This document shows positions 11,462 through 35,854 of a stretch of DNA of 64,000 nucleotides, one piece after another. The notes under the pieces are model-generated. The model was not told where the DNA came from. It searched no databases and saw nothing but the letters and a program-made list of their open reading frames with translations. A program made the translations under genes and the position numbers. Source of the stretch: Eledone cirrhosa (taxonomy: Eukaryota); contig OZ024740.1 in assembly GCA_964016885.1 (NCBI GenBank), positions 134,478,001-134,542,000 on the forward strand, in the 5' to 3' direction. Every line of letters starts with the position of its first letter. The first letter of the stretch is position 1.

Positions 11462-14228
11462 TTACAGACACATACTCAGAGTAGGCCCATTCACTCGGGC
11501 CATTCTTGCTTCTCTCACCCATCTTTCAACAAAATGCTGGGAAGAGAGCACTTCCCTCTCTACCCTGACTTTCCTTTTCAAATGAAATTTGAAATAGTTA
11601 ATAAGAGCATCACCGAAGAGGTAAGTGCTCGTCTTCAGCCCTTTCAAACGTGTCCACCATACTATCTCTTTCGCCATGGCCACCAGACAGATAAATACTT
11701 CCTGCCCTTCCCGGCTAAAGGAAGAGGGCGGGGAAATCCTCACGATGGACTCAGCTGATAGCAGGATCCGTTCTACACGTGACAGCAGGTGTTCGATATA
11801 AACCCACAAGTCAGCAGTGCTCGGACACTGGACGAGTGCGTGCAGGACGGTTTCGTCGCCCTGCGCGCATCTCGGACATGCCCGGCTGACGGCACCTCCA
11901 TGCCTGTAGAGTTTATCCCGAACTGGCAAAGCTCCTCGGTAGCACTGCCAGGCCAGGGATTTCTGGAAGTTGTCCATAGGCCCCGGCCCGAAAGTTCTTC
12001 CGAAGAGATTGGCTAGTTGATTTTCGTCGACGCCTAGAGTTTCTCAAAGTACGTCATCGCTCTTCTCCTCCACTAATCCTCAATAGAACGCCAATGTGGA
12101 GTTTCCACCGATCACATTGCCCGATTGGTCGAGGGCTGTGAGCGCCTGAAGACATTCCAGTCTCCAAGCGCTCCCTCTCGGTCTTCGCTTGACCCAGGAC
12201 TGCAGCTCCGTCAAGGAGACGAGCTGAGGAAAGACGCGTCTAGCAAACGGCGACCACACCTGATCACCGTCGAGGAAGAGGTGGAGATGTCGTAGCCTGA
12301 GCGCGTGTCTGCGCATCATCAGCCACGGCATGCCCATCCCTCCACGTAGCGGGTGTTGACAGCAGATGGACCGCCTGACCATCGGAGCGCGTCCCTTCCA
12401 CAAAAAGCGAAAGAGCAAACGCTCCAGCGCAGTCAAGCGGGTCTTAGGACAAGGTACGACGGTCAGGCGGTAGTAGATGACGGACGCGATGTACGCGTTA
12501 GCCACCTCCGCTCGACCTTTCAGGGATAGCTTCCTCTCCACCCATTTCTGGGTGAGAGAAGCCAACCTGCTCGTCAACTAGTCCTAGTTTTTGTCCGTCA
12601 GGAGGTCCGGACCGGGTCAGACCCCTAGCAATTTAACCAGTCCGTCCGTCAAGCGCCCGACGAGGCTGTTGTACGGCATGGAACTGCCTCTCCAGGTGCC
12701 GAGCTGCAGGCCCACTGACATTTCCTGGTTGATCATTGCTCCTGTCACCGCTTCGTATTCTCTTAGTGTAGTGCCGATCGCCTCGATGTGTTTGGCGTTC
12801 GACACCACTACGATGACATCGTCCGCATATGCTTACACGGATCTTCCGCATCCTAGTTCGCGCAGGATCCCCCTCAACGTCTCCAGTTTGTGCAGTAATG
12901 GCTCGAGAGTCAATACGTACAATAGGGACGAGAAGGGACATCCTTGGCGGACCGAGCACATGATGTTGAACGGTTCCGAAAGGTGACCGTTCACTCTCAC
13001 CACAAAGCAGATGTCGCTGTGCATGGCAACGATCCAGCCTCTGAAGACGGGCCCAAAGCCATCCGCCCTCAGGACTGCCGCTAGGTAACGATGGTCGAAC
13101 CTATCGAAAGCTTTCGACTGATCTATATTGATCAAGGACCCACCCGTGCCAGGTACCCTAGCTACCCTCTCTACGATGTATCGCATGAGGTGGAGGTTGT
13201 CGTGGATGGATCTGTCGCGAATGGCGCATATCTGCGCCTCTCCCACCAGACCACCAACGACAAGCGCCAACCTCTTTGCTAGCACCTTGGCCAAAATCTT
13301 GAACTCTGTGTTTTTCTCTATTGCTAAAGTCTTACTAAACCTAATGGACTCTATTCTAATCGCTCTTTTCAGAGCAAACCACCATTTGTTGTTGACGATG
13401 GCCCCCGTCAACGCCCGCTTAACTAGTTCGCTAATCCAGTCTCTGTAGGCCTTGCGCGCTGGTAAGGACATTTAGCTTCCAGTAGCCGGGTCCTCGTCTA
13501 TGAAGCCTATCTAAGTCAAGCACACAGATCACGAATGTTTGGTCCGTGTAGCTGGCTATCTTGAATTGTGGACAGCCTATGCTAGACCTATCTATTTCCC
13601 TACAAAATACTCTATCTAGATATGATCTGGATGACCCTATCCGGTTTGTCCAAGTCCACTTGTCCAAGTCACATTCGAGAAATCCAATCGGTACCTGTCA
13701 GACAGTTCAAAACGCCTGAGCAGGTTGGTGAGGCTCTTGCACCCCCCACCCCTATCCGCTAATCCCACACAGTCCCAGCGTGCATCTAAGATCCCGTTCC
13801 AGTCGCCCACTAACACTAAAGAGCGGGACGTTCCAAGAAAGGTCTCCAGACGCCGGAAGAAATCAGGCCGACCTGCTCCTGTAGTGGCATAGACGGCCAC
13901 TAGCCTGAAAGCTTGCCCGTCTCCGCTGGTCACGTCCAGCACCACTAACTTACCTTCTGGGTCCAGGAAGATGGTCCGTATGGCGAGATCCAAACCTCTC
14001 CGAAAAAGCACAGCAACTCCCCCCCCCCCCCGATCCAGGACGGCTGGGAGATGTGTACACATCGTAGCCGCCGAAGATCGGTGCGAAGGCCCGTGCTTCG
14101 GAGATTCTGGTCTCGCTGATGGCCACTACATCTATGTTTAGTGACCTGAGGTCGTTGAGCAGGTGGCCCTGCTTCCATGACGACCCCAAGCCACGCGCAT
14201 TTATGCTGCCTATTCTGAGTGAGGTCAT
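11462..14228 (-). pseudogene. LINE ORF2: AP endonuclease + reverse transcriptase + C-terminal Cys/His finger (frameshifted, with an internal deletion)
   Basis: APE motifs 'SINARGL', 'AISET', 'VGDWN', 'SYLDRVF', 'YTDQ'. RT motifs 'KILAKVLAKRL', 'DQSKAFDR', 'VRQGCP', 'AYADD'. Finger 'CPRCAQGDETVLHALVQC'. Confidence 0.9.
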
Positions 14229-14259
14229 GTTGAAATGGAGTGGAAAAGATGGGAAAGAC

Positions 14260-15929
14260 CACTTACCTTACTTCTCGTAGAGGAAGGATGGTTTCTCCAT
14301 CCTTTTCACTGCTTGTGGCCTACTCTGGAAGGATGTCCTTATAAATCCTCCTGGAGAGTGCTTGTAGGAAGTCTCCGATGTCTTTGGGGAATTTTTGTTT
14401 TAGTGTCGTGTACGTTTTCTGTGTGATGCGAGTGATTTGTATGTGTGGAGGTGGTGGGAACTTTTAGGTTGTTGTGTAGTCTTTTTCTGTGATGCTGGTG
14501 TTGTGTTGGATGTAGTGTAATAATTGGTTGTTGTTCAAATTTAATGCTGTGTAGAGTGTATCGTTTTGGTTGTTTTGTTTTGTTTGCGTTTGTTGTGGGT
14601 TTGTTTCTGTTTCGCTGTTTGGTGACTTTGGTGGTGTTAGGGTTAATGATGGTGATGGTGTTGGTGTTTGTGGTGATGGGGTTGGTGATGCTGGTGTGGA
14701 TGGTGGCATAGCTGTCCTAACTTTTTTGTTTGATAGTTTATTTGTTTCCTCTCTGTATTTTATTTTTGGAGGGGGAAGGAAGAGGATTTTTTCTTTTTTT
14801 GGTTTCTTTTTCTTTTTTTCTTTTTTCCTGATACTGTTTCCCATTCCTCGTCGTCACAATCTGTCTCCAGTTGCGATAGGTCGGGGAGTGGAAAATCCTC
14901 CACAGGCGTTGGTTTTGGTTGTGGCGTGGTGGATGGTGTAGGCGCTGGTGCTAGTTCTGGCGCGTTGGGTGGTGGTGATGTTGGTTTTGCTACTGTTGCT
15001 GGGGTTGTTGCTGTTACAGTTGCTTCTGTTGTTGCTGCTACAGTTGTTGCTGCCATTTCTGCTGCTGGTGGTGTTGATGGTTGAGTCACTGGGGTGGGTA
15101 AGAGAGGTGGCCTCAACCTTTTAGCCTGAGGGCAGAAAGCCCTTAGGTGGGTTCCTTCACCACAAACGACACAACTAGGCCTTCTGCCCTCGACGATTAC
15201 GGTGAGGTGGCTGCCGTCAGTGAGGTCTATTACCTCTGGGATCTACTCAATGCTTTTTTGGTCTGCTTGGATCAGGAGCTCCAACCCAGATCCGGACCAG
15301 TTCTCCTGCTTTTCTTTCGCTATTTTGATTATTTTGGTGTTGGCCTCGATGTCGGCGAGGACATTAGCCAGGGAATTTCGATGGCCGGTGGAACGTGGGT
15401 CACCCTGATCTTCACGAGTCTCTGGCCACAATAGCTTAGGACGAGTGTGAAGTCGTCACTTCTTAATGGGGCCATGGGGTGTCCTCTGGCCTCCTGTGGT
15501 GTTTCAAAGAACACGTCCACGGTTCCATATTTCTGCCCACGTCTGATGTGGGGTTTTTTTTGCTCTCACATGTCCCAAAGCTTTTTGGATTTGAGACTCG
15601 GATGCCCGTTCCACTCGGCGCGATTTTATGTTAATCGTCCGATAAGACACGGTGTATAGGCGCCGATGCTCCATTTTATTAGGTGGGACGGTGAGGCTGA
15701 CCCTGTACCCATCTTTCTTTACCATTCTTTTGGCTTCTTCTAACTCCTCCTGAGTTACCTGGATAGCTTCGCACTTTTTTGCTACTCTGGCAAAAGACAG
15801 AGCTTTCTTATTCTCATTGTTGCTGTTGTTGTTATCGTTATTTTTGTTATTGTTAATTTTAGTTTCAGTCGTGGTGGTGGTGGCGTCAGTGGTGTTCGGT
15901 GTGGAAGAGTTCATTCTGGGTGAATTCAT
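14260..15929 (-). pseudogene. LINE ORF1 (fragmented; Thr/Pro-rich and Lys-rich low-complexity regions)
   Basis: Consecutive minus-strand ORF pieces directly upstream of ORF2, including 'LSFARVAKK' and 'VKIRVTHVPPAIEIPWL'. Confidence 0.7.
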
Positions 15930-16402
15930 TTCGATATCACGAGATAATTTATTTTTTCTTTTGTTTCTGTTGTCGCTGTGGTGGTGGTGGAGGTGGCGGC
16001 TTCAACACCTGCAGTCATTGGTAATGGCGGGAAATGAATGTCTGCCTGAGACAAATTTAAAATATTGCTATTGCTTATATTTTTAGTGTTGGCAAACGTA
16101 GTAATATTTACAATGGTGGTGTCGGTGTGAGGTGTTAGTTTGTTAGGAAGGCTCTCAGCTACTTGGTTCAGCTGTCAGTCAGCCATGATTTTTCAAAGAA
16201 AAATCTTCTTTTTTTTATAATTATAAAAGTTTAAATTTTGGGCTCAAGCCCCAATCTTTTTGAGTGTCCTTTTCAGAAAACAATGTATATGCACTTATAT
16301 ACAGTTAACAATAAAAAATTTCCATAAATGGCAATTTTAAACAACTGAAAACAACAAACCTTTGCGGAGCTCACGATGATACGATTTACTACGTAGGTCG
16401 CC

Positions 16403-17026: not shown

Positions 17027-17138
<112 letters not shown>

Positions 17139-17182
17139 GGCTCTACAGGACTAGAACTGTTTCATTCGGGAGAAATCGTCAG

Positions 17183-17233
17183 GGCTTCCTGATGATTACT
17201 CCCGAATGAAACAGTTCTAGTCCTGTAGAAGCC
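17183..17233 (+). ncRNA. Type I hammerhead ribozyme, family A
   Basis: GGCTTC-CTGATGA-ttac tccc gaat-GAAA-CAG-ttctagtc-CTG-TA-GAAGCC. Six-bp stem I, intact core, 3-bp stem III, GUA cleavage triplet. An inverted copy lies immediately upstream (17135-17183). Confidence 0.85.
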
Positions 17234-17616
17234 ATTTCTATATTAAATATTTATACTTTGCTATGTATTGAGTACCTTACTTACTGTGGTTACCCCCGAT
17301 TGAACCTTGGATAAACTTTTATATATATATATATATATAAACGGAAAAAATGAAACGAAATTTCATTTCCCACTCTTAGTACGGCTGTTACTTAAATATA
17401 AGTACGTATACGTACATACATATATGTATACAGACGTATGTATATATATATACATACATGCACACATATATATATATGTACGTATTTTTTCCATTTATCG
17501 TTTTCGGTGCACCCGGCCGATTAACCCACTCGATATGCAAATTGGGCTGCTCAGCCGTTAATATGCATAAGGAAAGTATATACTTTCGGACGTTCAATCA
17601 TCTAGCAGGAAGGTAT

Positions 17617-17659
17617 ACGTTGCTGACGATAGCTAATAAGCTTGAAACTAGTACAGCGT
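17617..17659 (+). ncRNA. Minimal type I hammerhead ribozyme with palindromic stem III, family C
   Basis: ACGTTG-CTGACGA-t-AGCT-aata-AGCT-t-GAAA-C-TA-G-TA-CAGCGT. Six-bp stem I (one G-U), 4-bp stem II, ACTAGT palindrome at stem III, GUA triplet. Confidence 0.85.
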
Positions 17660-17843
17660 TCCTTTGTCAGTGTTGAACAAACGAGCAACGGTGGTTGCTA
17701 GACACTACGGCTTAATACACCGAGCATTATAATAAATGTTCGGTGAATCCATACGTACATATATATATATGTGTGTGCATGTATGTATATATATATACAT
17801 ACTACTGTACGTCTGTATACATATATGTATGTACGCATACATA

Positions 17844-17889
<46 letters not shown>

Positions 17890-17892
17890 AGT

Positions 17893-17990
17893 GGAATGAA
17901 TACAAAGGAGTATATACCGTTAAAACATGTTTATATAAAAACATTTTTATATAAACATGTTTTAACGGTATATACTCATTTGTATTCCTT
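17893..17990. repeat. Head-to-head inverted repeat next to a (TA)n tract
   Basis: gagtatataccgttaaaacatgtttatataaaaa-ca-tttttatataaacatgttttaacggtatatactc, with imperfect outer extensions. Confidence 0.9.
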
Positions 17991-23699: not shown

Positions 23700-25640
23700 G
23701 AGTCATGAGGGTGTTTGAAGGCAAGGGAAGTCCTGCGCCATTGGTGTTTACATGCGGTTACATGTTCGTACATGCGGTTACAAGTTCGTAAACAGTATTT
23801 GTATTGTTTCCTCCGAGCATAAGCTACACGGACGGCTTCCTCCCGAGTAGGAGTTAGCCTTGGAAAGTAAGCTCCAAGTAAGATGGTATGTGATGTTATT
23901 ATCTTGGAGGTCCCAGATGTGGCCCGAAAGTGTAATGGCATGTTGCCGGGCCGGGTTTCTGAACGTATGTCGGTGTTAGTAGAGCCGGGTCTTAAAGTCA
24001 CAGGGGGTTAATCCTATATAGGCTTTGTTGGAGTTTTCCGTCCTCACGTTGCATTGGTAGATCACGTTGCGTTCTCGGCATCTGTTGTTGAGGGGGCACG
24101 TAGATCTATCAGGGCAGTTATACCCCCTAGTCGACTCTCCACTAATGTCTAGGCTGTTTCTTCTGTAGGAGTTGAGTTTCTTGTTGTTTGAGGAGGCAAT
24201 GATTTGTGCGAAGTTGGGTGTGGTGCTGTAGAAGAGTTTGATAGTGTTTTTGTTGATTATGTTGAGGTAGCGGTGTTGTGGTGGGGAGTGTTTTTCGAGG
24301 AATCTAAAAAAGATTTTGCCGATTGGTGTTGCAACCTCGGCATTGTGGGGAGGATTGATCCACGTTACGTGGCGTGAGCGGTAGCGTCGCCTGTTGGTTC
24401 CTCTAGGGGAGCCTGGGTAAAATGAGATCTCCTCCCAAAAGCCGCTTCGCTTGAGGGCCTGGTTGTAATACGGCGCATGTTCATTGAATATCTGTTCATT
24501 AGCGGACAAACGAGATATGCGGAGGGAGATGTTTTTAACCAGGTTATTGGTGATGTTTCTAGGATGGTTAGAGCGGCGGTGGATGTAGTGTAGGTTGTCG
24601 TTTGGTTTCCCGTATGGGTAGTACAGATCATTTTCGAGGTTGAGGGTAACGTCCAGGAAATTGGCTCGGGTTAGGGACGTCTGTGGGAAACATTTCGGTG
24701 AGTTTATGTAGTAAGAATAATCCTATAAGATCGGTCACCTCCGCCGAGTCGGCCATACTGATGTCGAAGTGGGAGTCGAGAGCTCTCTTTATCGAATTGG
24801 AGTTATCGAAGAGGAGGACTGTATTTCTGGCATGGAAAATGATGTTTCTTTCCTGGTCGGTGATGGGTATAAGGGTTTTTTGCAAAGTCCAAAGCGGCTG
24901 TAAAGAGCGGTAGGGTAATAGAGGCGTAATAGCTCTCTATGTCGAACTGGATGAATTTGGTGTCCTGTTTATCCTCAATATTCCTGAACCATGAGATGAC
25001 TTCCTGGGTGCTGACCCAAAGGCTAAGTCTCGCGTTTTGCTTGACTTTTGTTATAACGCGGTCTAGGATCTTTTTGCTGATTCTCCCTATATCCGACTTC
25101 GTCGGGTTTATAAGCCTGATGGATGGTTTGCGGTTGAAGTCGGATTTATGGTCCTTCAGGGTGAAGTAGGGATTCCGTGGGTCGAGAGGTTCAGTACGGT
25201 CAGCAACCCCGAGGCTGGAGGTAATGTGTTGTCCATCTAGATTTATGTCGTGGATTAAAGAATGGTTTGCCTTTTTGTAGGTCGAGTTCAGGCTGCTCCT
25301 GATAAGTGTGTGGTATCTGTCAGGGTTGACGAAATAGAGGTTTCCAGTTTTGTCCGAATGCACCAGGATGTCGTTGGTGCTTTCATACTCCGTTATTTTG
25401 CTACGGAGTTGTTGTAGGAATCGGTTGTGTCTGGGTTTGAATTTTATACTCTTGAGCAGGTGAAAGAGGTCATTCTCGAAGGGGGAGAGCAGAGGGTTCG
25501 GTGGGGGAGATTTGTAGGTATTGAATCCGAATATCTCCTTGGTGTCGAAGTCCAGGTTGTCGCGGTATCTATCGTAGAAGAATGTTCTCCGTCTCAATGT
25601 TTTCGTAAACTGGTCGATTTTTTACGTGAGCATCCGTAGG
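23700..25640 (-). pseudogene. Penelope-type reverse transcriptase + GIY-YIG endonuclease (frameshifted)
   Basis: 'RLINPTKSDIGRISKKIL', 'IQFDIESYYASI', 'VTWINPPHN', 'CPLNNRCRERNVIYQCNV..KAYIGLT..FKTRL' (VIY..YIG). The catalytic YxDD region appears to be deleted. Confidence 0.9.
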
Positions 25641-26932: not shown

Positions 26933-28365
26933 CACTCAGACTCAGAAGCTCCCGCGTCTTGCGACGCATGAGGCAATCATAGTGTTCCACCGCGTTCGGT
27001 CAGCAGCCAGTTGCATAGCGTCCCGCCATTGTCTGTTTGTCGCTCGCAGGTCCCTCTCAACTGTCTGGCGCCAGTTCATTTTGGGTCGCCCTCTCCGTCT
27101 GCTTCCCTGTGGGTTCCATTTAAGTACTTGGTTCGCCAGTCTCTCCGAGGGAAGTCTCAAAGCGTGTCCAAACCAGCCCAGGCGTCGCTTGCAGATGGCA
27201 GAAGAGACTAGCTGTTGGTTGGTGCGGTTCCTGACTTCCTGGTTTGTTACATGGTCACTCCATTTAATCCACAGGATCTTTCGCAGACACCTGGAATCGA
27301 ATGCGTCCAACTTCTTCTCTTGGCTGGTCTTAAGGTGCCATGTTTCACTTCCGTACAAGAGTATGGACAGCACGTTGCTGTTGTAGAATCTCATCTTTGT
27401 TTTGAGGGTGAACTTCCTGCTCTTCCAGATCTTGACAAGCTGGTTAAATGCTGCTGAAGCCTTTCCCATTCTACATTGCAATTCACTGTCCATGGCGCCC
27501 CCATTGTCAATGGAGCTTCCTAGGTAGGTGAAGTTGCCCACTATCTCCACCTCCCCCTGTTCAATGAAAACACTAGTTGGTGATGGGTGTGTCCCAGATA
27601 ACATGGTTTTGGTCTTCTTAGCACTGATATTGAGACCTAAGCTTCCTGCTTCGACATTGATATTGTTCATAATGATTTGCGGGTCAGCTGTGCTCTCTGC
27701 AAGTGCAACAATATCGTCCGCAAAGTCCAGGTCAACTTTTGCTCTCCCACCCAAGATATACGCTCTTCTTCGTACCCAGTCAATGGCTATGGCAAAGAGA
27801 ATTGGAGAGAGCGAGCAACCTTGACACACACCAGTAGCCACCTCAAACCAGTCACTGTAACCATCCTCTGTCCGTATTCAGCACTTGGAGTTTGCATAAA
27901 TCTGTTTGATTGCCGAAATGACTTTCTGGGGCAGACCATACTCATGCATGATGCTCCAGAGTGACGGCCAATGAATGCTATCGAATGCTTTGGAGAAATC
28001 GATGAAGCTGACGGCGAGGGGCCTCTGGAATTCGTTGTACCTCTCAATGATGCGGCGTAAGGTAAAGATCTGCTCTGCACAGGAACGTTTTGGTCGGAAC
28101 CCTGCCTGTTGTTCTCGCAGTTCCCGGTCTACCATGCCAAGTCAGGAGGCGAAAGCATGGTCAAGTGGATGGGCCACTTATGTAATCTTGTGTGGAACAC
28201 GGGTGAAGTCCCAGAAGATTGGAGAAACGGAGCGGTTGTCTGTATCCCCAAGAAGGGCAACCTTGCCGATTGTGACAACTGGAGGGAGTGACACTTCTCT
28301 CCATACCAGGGAAGGTCTATTGTCTGATGATCCTGAACCGCATACGTGGCATGGTAGACCGGGAA
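26933..28365 (-). mobile_element. 5'-truncated RTE-clade LINE with 5' inversion and 11-bp TSD
   Basis: RT 'EQQAGFRPKRSCAEQIFTLR..FIDFSKAFDS..GVCQGCSLSPILF..LDFADD..LYGSETW..RRRGRPKMNW'. (TCTGAG)2 tail. TSD CTGTGAGAAAT at 26922-26932 and 28366-28376. Segment 28140-28365 is inverted. Confidence 0.92.
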
Positions 28366-35807: not shown

Positions 35808-35854
35808 TCCTGATGAGTTCTCCCGAATGAAACAGTTCTAGTCCTGTAGAAGCC
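35808..35854 (+). ncRNA. Type I HHR, family A (5'-truncated by an inversion)
   Basis: TC-CTGATGA-GTTC-tccc-GAAT-GAAA-CAG-ttctagtc-CTG-TA-GAAGCC. It is preceded by an inverted piece of the same family's tail (35766-35809 is the reverse complement of ~17270-17314). Confidence 0.75.

What the first reader, a model, noticed from the sequence alone, without database searches (positions are those of the whole stretch)
17617..17659. Intact minimal HHR with a 2-nt palindromic stem III loop (probable obligate dimer)
Seen: a perfect core, 6-bp stem I and 4-bp stem II. Stem III is ACTAGT, which cannot close as a monomer hairpin but can pair between two molecules. A hairpin caccgagcatt..aatgttcggtg with AATAAA follows at ~17718-17746. 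Established: small PLE-associated HHRs with palindromic stem III cleave as dimers. This is the best candidate for an active ribozyme in the window.
Basis: partly seen in the sequence, partly recalled or inferred. Interest (0 to 1): 0.75.

Follow-up and report, generated by a model that had tools for sequence, protein, structure and literature searches.

The report
Lone hammerhead copy of a retrozyme
This is a real hammerhead-type RNA motif, but it is one ordinary, solitary copy among thousands of a short non-coding mobile repeat, whose tandem copies elsewhere in the genome likely cut themselves in pairs to make RNA circles.

Summary
The motif is real and not chance. It is not a minimal Penelope-type hammerhead. 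It is a full-length type I hammerhead (17602-17670) with an extended helix I, a 6-nt loop 2 and a U-U mismatch at the base of helix II. It lies in a 422-429-bp non-coding repeat with 7,740 exact copies of the 35-nt core pattern: a non-LTR retrozyme. Helices I and II covary across sister families, and helix III stays palindromic in three different sequences, which supports cleavage as dimers (inferred, untested; 'obligate' is too strong). Insertions are often two-armed, sit in (TA)n and end at two fixed sites, one per arm (33 of 34 informative pairs), as expected of Penelope-type reverse transcription. No Penelope ORF abuts the unit (0 of 61 flanks). The window copy has one hammerhead, a 21-bp deletion and a broken distal pair, and dispersed copies decay neutrally, so it is probably inert. 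A very young subfamily of identical arrays elsewhere is the better test material. The scan reported the two-armed retrozyme picture before, on sister families in this genome. Verdict: new member of a known kind.

The parts
17602..17670 (+). Full-length type I hammerhead: distal helix I 17602-17607/17665-17670 and 17610-17613/17661-17664, internal loop 17614-17616/17660, proximal helix I 17617-17622/17654-17659
   Evidence: this copy has a private G>A at 17604 that breaks a distal pair (57 of 58 copies have G)
17623..17653 (+). Catalytic core, helix II (U-U plus 3 bp, 6-nt loop 17634-17639) and palindromic helix III 17647-17652; predicted cut after 17653
17484..17850 (+). Right arm of the insertion: unit positions about 418 to 376, with a 21-bp deletion after 17716; ends at fixed end site E1
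17339..17491 (-). Left, inverted arm: unit positions 278-430, no hammerhead; ends at fixed end site E2
17320..17338 (.). (TA)n target, left side
   Evidence: sequence
17846..17887 (.). (TA)n target, right side; boundary with the arm is blurred by microhomology
   Evidence: sequence
17535..17542 (+). Octamer ATGCAAAT, 88 nt before C3; possible promoter element (inferred; the name is recalled)
   Evidence: kept at -79 to -100 in families A, B, C, D and F, absent from the 310-bp family
17718..17745 (+). 11-bp hairpin of the repeat unit; its AATAAA is probably not a poly(A) signal

Best explanation
The motif is the full-length type I hammerhead of a 422-429-bp, multi-thousand-copy non-coding repeat (a non-LTR retrozyme), and this window holds a solitary, slightly damaged copy that is likely inert. 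Shown: the fold covaries across sister families; the unit occurs as dispersed copies and head-to-tail arrays; insertions lie in (TA)n, have variable 5' ends, are often two-armed and end at two fixed sites about 54 nt apart, one per arm. Inferred: tandem arrays are transcribed; neighbouring hammerheads pair through the palindromic helix III and cut; the unit-length RNA is ligated into a circle that has one hammerhead and so resists re-cutting; a Penelope-type RT-endonuclease nicks (TA)n and copies the RNA from both DNA strands at two internal start sites, running round the circle to give multi-unit arms. The window copy could be cut only with a partner RNA in trans and could not release a unit-length RNA, since that takes two hammerheads.
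For: 7,740 exact core matches, control 0; 40,683 of the general architecture, control 1. Eight family representatives: 12 of 15 pairs change on both sides, 6 of 6 in helix I; covariation score 0.79 against 0.30 shuffled and at most 0.18 in slid controls. Helix III centre TA, GC or AT, always palindromic in these representatives. Closing helix III in the monomer with the A-U pair costs 5.4 kcal/mol; the 6-bp intermolecular duplex is -4.8. Unit GC 38.6%, circular fold z -7.8. 142 of 164 arms end at E1 or E2; 33 of 47 back-to-back pairs are E1+E2, 1 is E1+E1, 13 involve another end (p 4e-9 on 33:1). This fits two adjacent RT start sites and extension of both strands shown for an anole PLE (PMC11167929) and the one-ended tail and inverted copies of PLEs (PMC8557442). 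An autonomous PLE-like family here also shows arm ends at two sites before (TA)n (2 and 6 ends in 30 loci). 19 insertions on many contigs have units identical or nearly so outside the AT tract, up to 13+5 units; one carries 2 private changes in all 7 units of both arms.
Against: No cleavage, expression or circle was observed. 79 of 104 sampled insertions have no two same-strand hammerheads (sample not random). Core plus palindrome mutate as fast as the rest in dispersed copies (17/914 against 155/7547, p 0.8), so selection shows only between families. Position 10.1:11.1 is unpaired in 5 of 8 representatives, which should slow cleavage. 8 of 9 predicted Xenopus retrozyme dimers did not cleave in vitro (bioRxiv 10.64898/2026.07.22.740005). 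5' ends are not enriched at the cut site (2 of 164, 4.2 expected), and PLE insertion in vitro did not need the ribozyme. No sequence shared with the one PLE family tested. Covariation counts come from 8 related sequences chosen by a core pattern and helix I pairing, so they lean towards the structure.
Confidence: 0.8

Rival explanations
1. It is the minimal hammerhead of a Penelope pseudo-LTR, left behind by a truncated autonomous element.
For: PLE-like insertion anatomy; palindromic helix III; PLEs are abundant in this genome; Xenopus retrozymes resemble pLTRs.
Against: Architecture fails the min-HHR features (against 26, 73). No PLE protein match in 61 free 5' flanks, searched with 3 PLE-like proteins. 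The PLE-like family examined has a different hammerhead with a long helix II. The unit repeats head to tail with no ORF between copies.
Confidence: 0.08
2. The hammerhead works as a monomer because loop 1-loop 2 contacts make up for the weak helix III; the palindrome only adds to the rate.
For: Extended helix I and 6-nt loop 2 are kept. Most invertebrate retrozyme hammerheads cut as monomers (PMC7761336); axolotl monomers cut 6% and 22% in an hour. One relative here has a longer, non-palindromic helix III (L198).
Against: Helix III would be one pair plus a tetraloop, as in the dimer-dependent amphibian motifs; the palindrome is kept through double changes; the monomer's lowest-energy fold buries the core.
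Confidence: 0.2
3. The arrays grow by local DNA duplication or come from linear multimer transcripts; no RNA circle is involved and the ribozyme is a passenger.
For: Old arrays show irregular higher-order repeats. In one strictly alternating array the opposite arm shares only some of the private changes. Identity within young arrays is expected anyway because the whole subfamily is nearly identical. Ribozyme mutants did not block PLE insertion in vitro.
Against: Long arrays on both arms of fresh insertions with E1/E2 ends; private changes shared by every unit of both arms in one insertion; structure kept across families down to about 65% identity.
Confidence: 0.2

Closest known systems
Metazoan non-LTR retrozymes (Cervera and de la Pena 2020, PMC7229834; read passages, Results parts 1-2 of 3 and Discussion)
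   Same: Short low-GC tandem unit, one canonical type I hammerhead per unit, strongly self-paired predicted circle, PLEs in the same genome.
   Different: Unit at the long end (422-429 bp); two-armed inverted insertions with two fixed ends in (TA)n are not described in the parts read; expression not shown here.
Axolotl HHR_Amex1 and HHR_Amex2, newt satellite 2 (PMC7229834)
   Same: One pair plus palindromic tetraloop in helix III (Amex1); U-U at the base of helix II (Amex2); both cut better as dimers.
   Different: Both weak points fall in one motif here, and in what looks like an invertebrate genome, where the review says most motifs cut as monomers (PMC7761336 passages).
PLE minimal hammerheads (Cervera and de la Pena 2014, PMC4209133, parts 1-2 of 4 read; Lunse et al. 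2017 known only by title and a review passage)
   Same: Type I topology, palindromic 15.2-16.2, predicted dimer cleavage.
   Different: Helix II short, helix I long with a defined loop 1, no bulged base before 10.1, no G10.1-C11.1, no flanking ORF.
Poseidon PLE of the green anole (Frangieh et al. 2024, PMC11167929, parts 1-2 of 4 read)
   Same: AT-rich target, two adjacent internal start sites, both strands extended; matches the E1/E2 ends.
   Different: That element is autonomous, its tail is described as 30-40 bp against about 54 here, and no sequence link to a partner PLE was found.
Newt satellite 2 snRNA-type promoter (Coats et al. 1994; title and one citing passage in PMC2220036 only)
   Same: Hammerhead repeat with a candidate internal promoter; an octamer is conserved here (that the newt promoter has an octamer is recalled).
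   Different: No proximal element was identified and no transcription tested; the 310-bp sister family lacks the octamer.

Membership tests
Canonical metazoan type I hammerhead | Conserved core CUGANGA, GAAA, UH | tested here: met
   invariant columns
Canonical metazoan type I hammerhead | Helix I of 6 bp followed by an internal loop 1 | tested here: met
   6 of 6 pairs change on both sides; HH9 model aligned end to end
Canonical metazoan type I hammerhead | Helix II of 4 bp | tested here: inconclusive
   3 bp plus U-U; the 470-bp sister family has a full 4-bp helix with G-C; axolotl Amex2 has the same U-U
Canonical metazoan type I hammerhead | Loop 1-loop 2 tertiary contacts | tested here: inconclusive
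   loop sizes and several letters match the HH9 consensus and are kept; contacts themselves not testable
Canonical metazoan type I hammerhead | Helix III of 1-2 bp with a small palindromic loop | tested here: met
Canonical metazoan type I hammerhead | Self-cleavage in Mg2+ | not testable with these tools
   needs in vitro assay
PLE minimal hammerhead (min-HHR) | Long helix II (7-8 bp) and short helix I (4-5 bp) with poorly defined loop 1 | tested here: not met
   feature; observed
PLE minimal hammerhead (min-HHR) | Extra nucleotide between 9 and 10.1, and G10.1-C11.1 | tested here: not met
   feature; register fixed
PLE minimal hammerhead (min-HHR) | Palindromic 15.2-16.2 and loop 3 | tested here: met
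PLE minimal hammerhead (min-HHR) | Lies in a pLTR flanking an RT-GIY-YIG ORF | tested here: not met
   0 of 61 free 5' flanks match 3 PLE-like proteins; a sample, not the whole genome
Non-LTR retrozyme | Tandem unit of 150-450 bp with one type I hammerhead each | tested here: met
   family level: 25 of 104 insertions have two or more in tandem; arrays
Non-LTR retrozyme | Low GC, non-coding, self-paired circular fold | tested here: met
   GC 38.6%, 69% paired, z -7.8; unit too short for an RT and no RT ORF within arrays
Non-LTR retrozyme | At least two consecutive hammerheads for an active copy | tested here: not met
   window copy has one; criterion from the Li et al. preprint. This makes it an inactive member, not a non-member
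Non-LTR retrozyme | Expressed as unit-length linear and circular RNA | not testable with these tools
   needs northern blot, RNase R or raw RNA reads
Non-LTR retrozyme | Target-site duplication larger than 4 bp when present | not tested
   insertions lie in (TA)n, where duplications cannot be read

The most novel reading that the evidence does not exclude
The family is a self-transcribing retrozyme: a conserved octamer drives its own transcription, a doubly weakened hammerhead cuts only in pairs and so spares the monomer circle, and a Penelope enzyme copies that circle from two start sites on both DNA strands. A subfamily with identical copies on many chromosomes is moving now, which makes the whole proposed retrozyme cycle testable in one animal.
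Probability: 0.3. Interest if true: 0.6.

Novelty: new member of a known kind. Interest (0 to 1): 0.33.

Why it matters
The single copy matters little. The family does: the published retrozyme cycle assumes read-through transcription and an unidentified reverse transcriptase, and the review read here says these repeats show no promoter and no motif that points to their helper. This family offers a conserved octamer, Penelope-type two-site ends, natural palindrome swaps in helix III and a very young subfamily, all of which give direct tests.

Tried and rejected
No RNA holder listed for the stretch; three runs of unrecorded kind laid as contigs showed only family variants: no evidence on expression. 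Rfam at gathering score: nothing; the 1-kb E-value scan gave only microsatellite-driven miRNA matches. Selection on the core among dispersed copies: none. Poly(A) signal: AATAAA present in families A and B, absent from C2, D and F, and arms end in (TA)n: rejected. Alternating (period-2) arrays L032 and L033 as records of dimer circles with one weak hammerhead: both have helix lesions in alternate units, but n = 2, such lesions are likely by chance, no parent was among 35 scored candidates and one search points partly to local duplication: unresolved. Within-array identity as proof of a circle: weakened, since the young subfamily is near-identical throughout. Partner PLE: no match longer than 11 nt with the one family tested. 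Pfam recognised RT and GIY-YIG in 1 of 6 flanking ORFs and RT weakly in 1 more; the L040 family is called PLE-like from recalled motifs and anatomy only. Print: no description of this family found in searches for hammerhead with octopus, with cephalopod and retrozyme, or retrozyme papers since 2021; Lunse 2017 and Coats 1994 were not held, and no supplements were read, which may list such motifs. No paper on 10.1:11.1 mismatches was found. Look-ups of earlier findings by sequence, nearby place and words gave nothing.

Full report
Observation. A scan found 1 strict match in the window and 0 in 300 block-shuffled windows. Two things were missed. Helix I continues through an internal loop to 17602/17670, and Rfam's HH9 model aligns over all 77 positions (E 0.0057, below gathering). 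Position 10.1:11.1 is U-U. The 43-nt motif alone folds no better than shuffles and pairs the palindrome with the core's CUG.

The element. The window is part of a 3.0-Gb genome; an animal, probably a cephalopod, is my inference and was not tested. The flanking 271 bp gave 2,023 candidates, 40 scored, all 88-100% identical. The 35-nt core pattern has 7,740 exact matches, control 0. The unit is 422-429 bp, head to tail. Of 104 insertions with a whole hammerhead, 79 have no same-strand tandem pair and 25 have 2-8. The sample is the 30 best matches to the window copy plus loci taken from the first listed matches on one contig, so it is not random. The window insertion is two-armed: an inverted piece without hammerhead (17339-17491) and a forward arm (17484-about 17850), between (TA)n runs. 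It has a 21-bp deletion and a private change at 17604 that breaks a distal pair.

Is the fold selected? Among 58 independent copies picked by a motif outside the ribozyme (the long array L119/L120 and further copies within an insertion were dropped), core and palindrome differ at 17 of 914 positions and the rest at 155 of 7,547 (p 0.8); 42 of 58 are intact. So inserted copies decay neutrally and this copy's intact core is ordinary. Between families the fold is kept. Relaxed patterns found sisters: a 470-bp family with a full G-C-closed helix II and the same 6-nt loop, a 310-bp family and others (40,683 matches, control 1). In 8 representatives, 12 of 15 pairs change on both sides, all 6 in helix I; covariation score 0.79, shuffles 0.30, slid controls at most 0.18; 10.1:11.1 is unpaired in 5 of 8. 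The centre of helix III is TA, GC or AT, each a palindrome. In a search restricted to centres starting with A or C, 47 of the first 100 of 972 matches were AT by my count; most others looked like single changes of the TA families, and 8 were one CT variant. These sequences are related and were chosen by pattern, so the controls overstate significance.

Monomer or dimer. Closing helix III with the single A-U pair costs 5.4 kcal/mol; two palindromes pair at -4.8. Axolotl Amex1 (one pair plus palindromic tetraloop) and Amex2 (U-U in helix II) cut 6% and 22% in an hour as monomers and much better as dimers (PMC7229834). Dimer dependence is therefore likely, 'obligate' unproven. The window copy has no partner in cis. 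Caution: 8 of 9 predicted Xenopus dimers did not cut (Li et al. preprint, parts 1-3 of 5 read).

How it moves. Of 164 uncut arms, 67 end at unit position 370-380 (E1) and 75 at 419-4 (E2); 44 and 61 of these run into (TA)n, against 3 of 22 other ends. Of 47 back-to-back pairs, 33 have one end of each kind, 1 has two E1 and 13 involve another end. 5' ends are scattered and not enriched at the cut site. An anole Penelope protein cuts AT-rich DNA, extends both strands and starts at two adjacent internal sites (PMC11167929); inverted copies and a tail at one end are PLE traits (PMC8557442, 12 of 20 passages). I saw inverted arms and fixed ends, but the two-armed, two-start reading was sharpened by earlier scan notes on the 310-bp family. 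PLEs are present: one flanking ORF has RT and GIY-YIG, and a PLE-like family shows two end sites before (TA)n. No unit abuts a PLE ORF (0 of 61 flanks) and no helper was identified. Nineteen insertions of a 422-bp subfamily are identical or nearly so outside the AT tract, with up to 13+5 units; one has 2 private changes in all 7 units on both arms, as copying from one circle would give, though a multimer transcript of an unseen parent would too. These were found by querying with such an array, so they are selected for youth. The window copy belongs to an older group.

Promoter hint. ATGCAAAT lies 79-100 nt before C3 in five related families down to about 65% identity and is absent from the 310-bp family. 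Newt satellite 2 is reported to use an snRNA-type promoter (citing passage only), while a review says retrozymes seem to lack promoters (PMC7761336 passages). This is a lead only.

Comparison and verdict. It works like the amphibian retrozyme hammerheads and meets the testable features of non-LTR retrozymes at family level. It fails the PLE minimal-hammerhead features (PMC4209133). No description of this family turned up; supplements were not read. The copy itself is an ordinary, probably inert insertion. New member of a known kind; interest 0.33.

Noticed in passing
window 17138-17240: A 100-bp palindrome made of two inverted hammerhead-like halves (C3 at 17189 on + and 17182 on -; helix III of 4 bp with an 8-nt loop), folding at -80.7 kcal/mol, z -17. 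It is a separate repeat family: 1,436 candidates, 40 scored, best matches 95-100%. A related half lies at 35810 on +.
   Followed up: partly
L256-L285 (for example G000:C931:1840-9619): Very young 422-bp subfamily: 19 insertions on different contigs with identical or near-identical units, many two-armed, up to 13+5 units.
   Followed up: partly
L032:4340-6300 and L033:3000-7800: Arrays in which two unit types alternate strictly (0 differences at period 2, 14 and about 9 at period 1); dimer circle or local duplication unresolved.
   Followed up: partly
L040:1153-4420 (-): PLE-like element with a 775-codon frame that Pfam does not recognise; its own hammerhead-like motif at L040:3822 has a long helix II and a palindromic helix III; arms end at two sites before (TA)n.
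   Followed up: partly
window 23793-25621 (-): Broken PLE-like ORF of the L040 type.
   Followed up: no
window 11462-16001 (-) and 26942-27877 (-): Fragments that look like two LINE-type retrotransposons (names from recalled motifs).
   Followed up: no
L119/L120, L303-L314 (G000:C1:96.98-97.04 Mb) and G000:C4:351.90-351.93 Mb: Large, old satellite-like arrays of the same unit with irregular higher-order repeats and many damaged hammerheads.
   Followed up: no
window 17895-17990: A long inverted repeat right after the insertion's right (TA)n flank.
   Followed up: no
L198:1480-1540 (-): Relative with a longer, non-palindromic helix III, a possible monomer-active variant.
   Followed up: no
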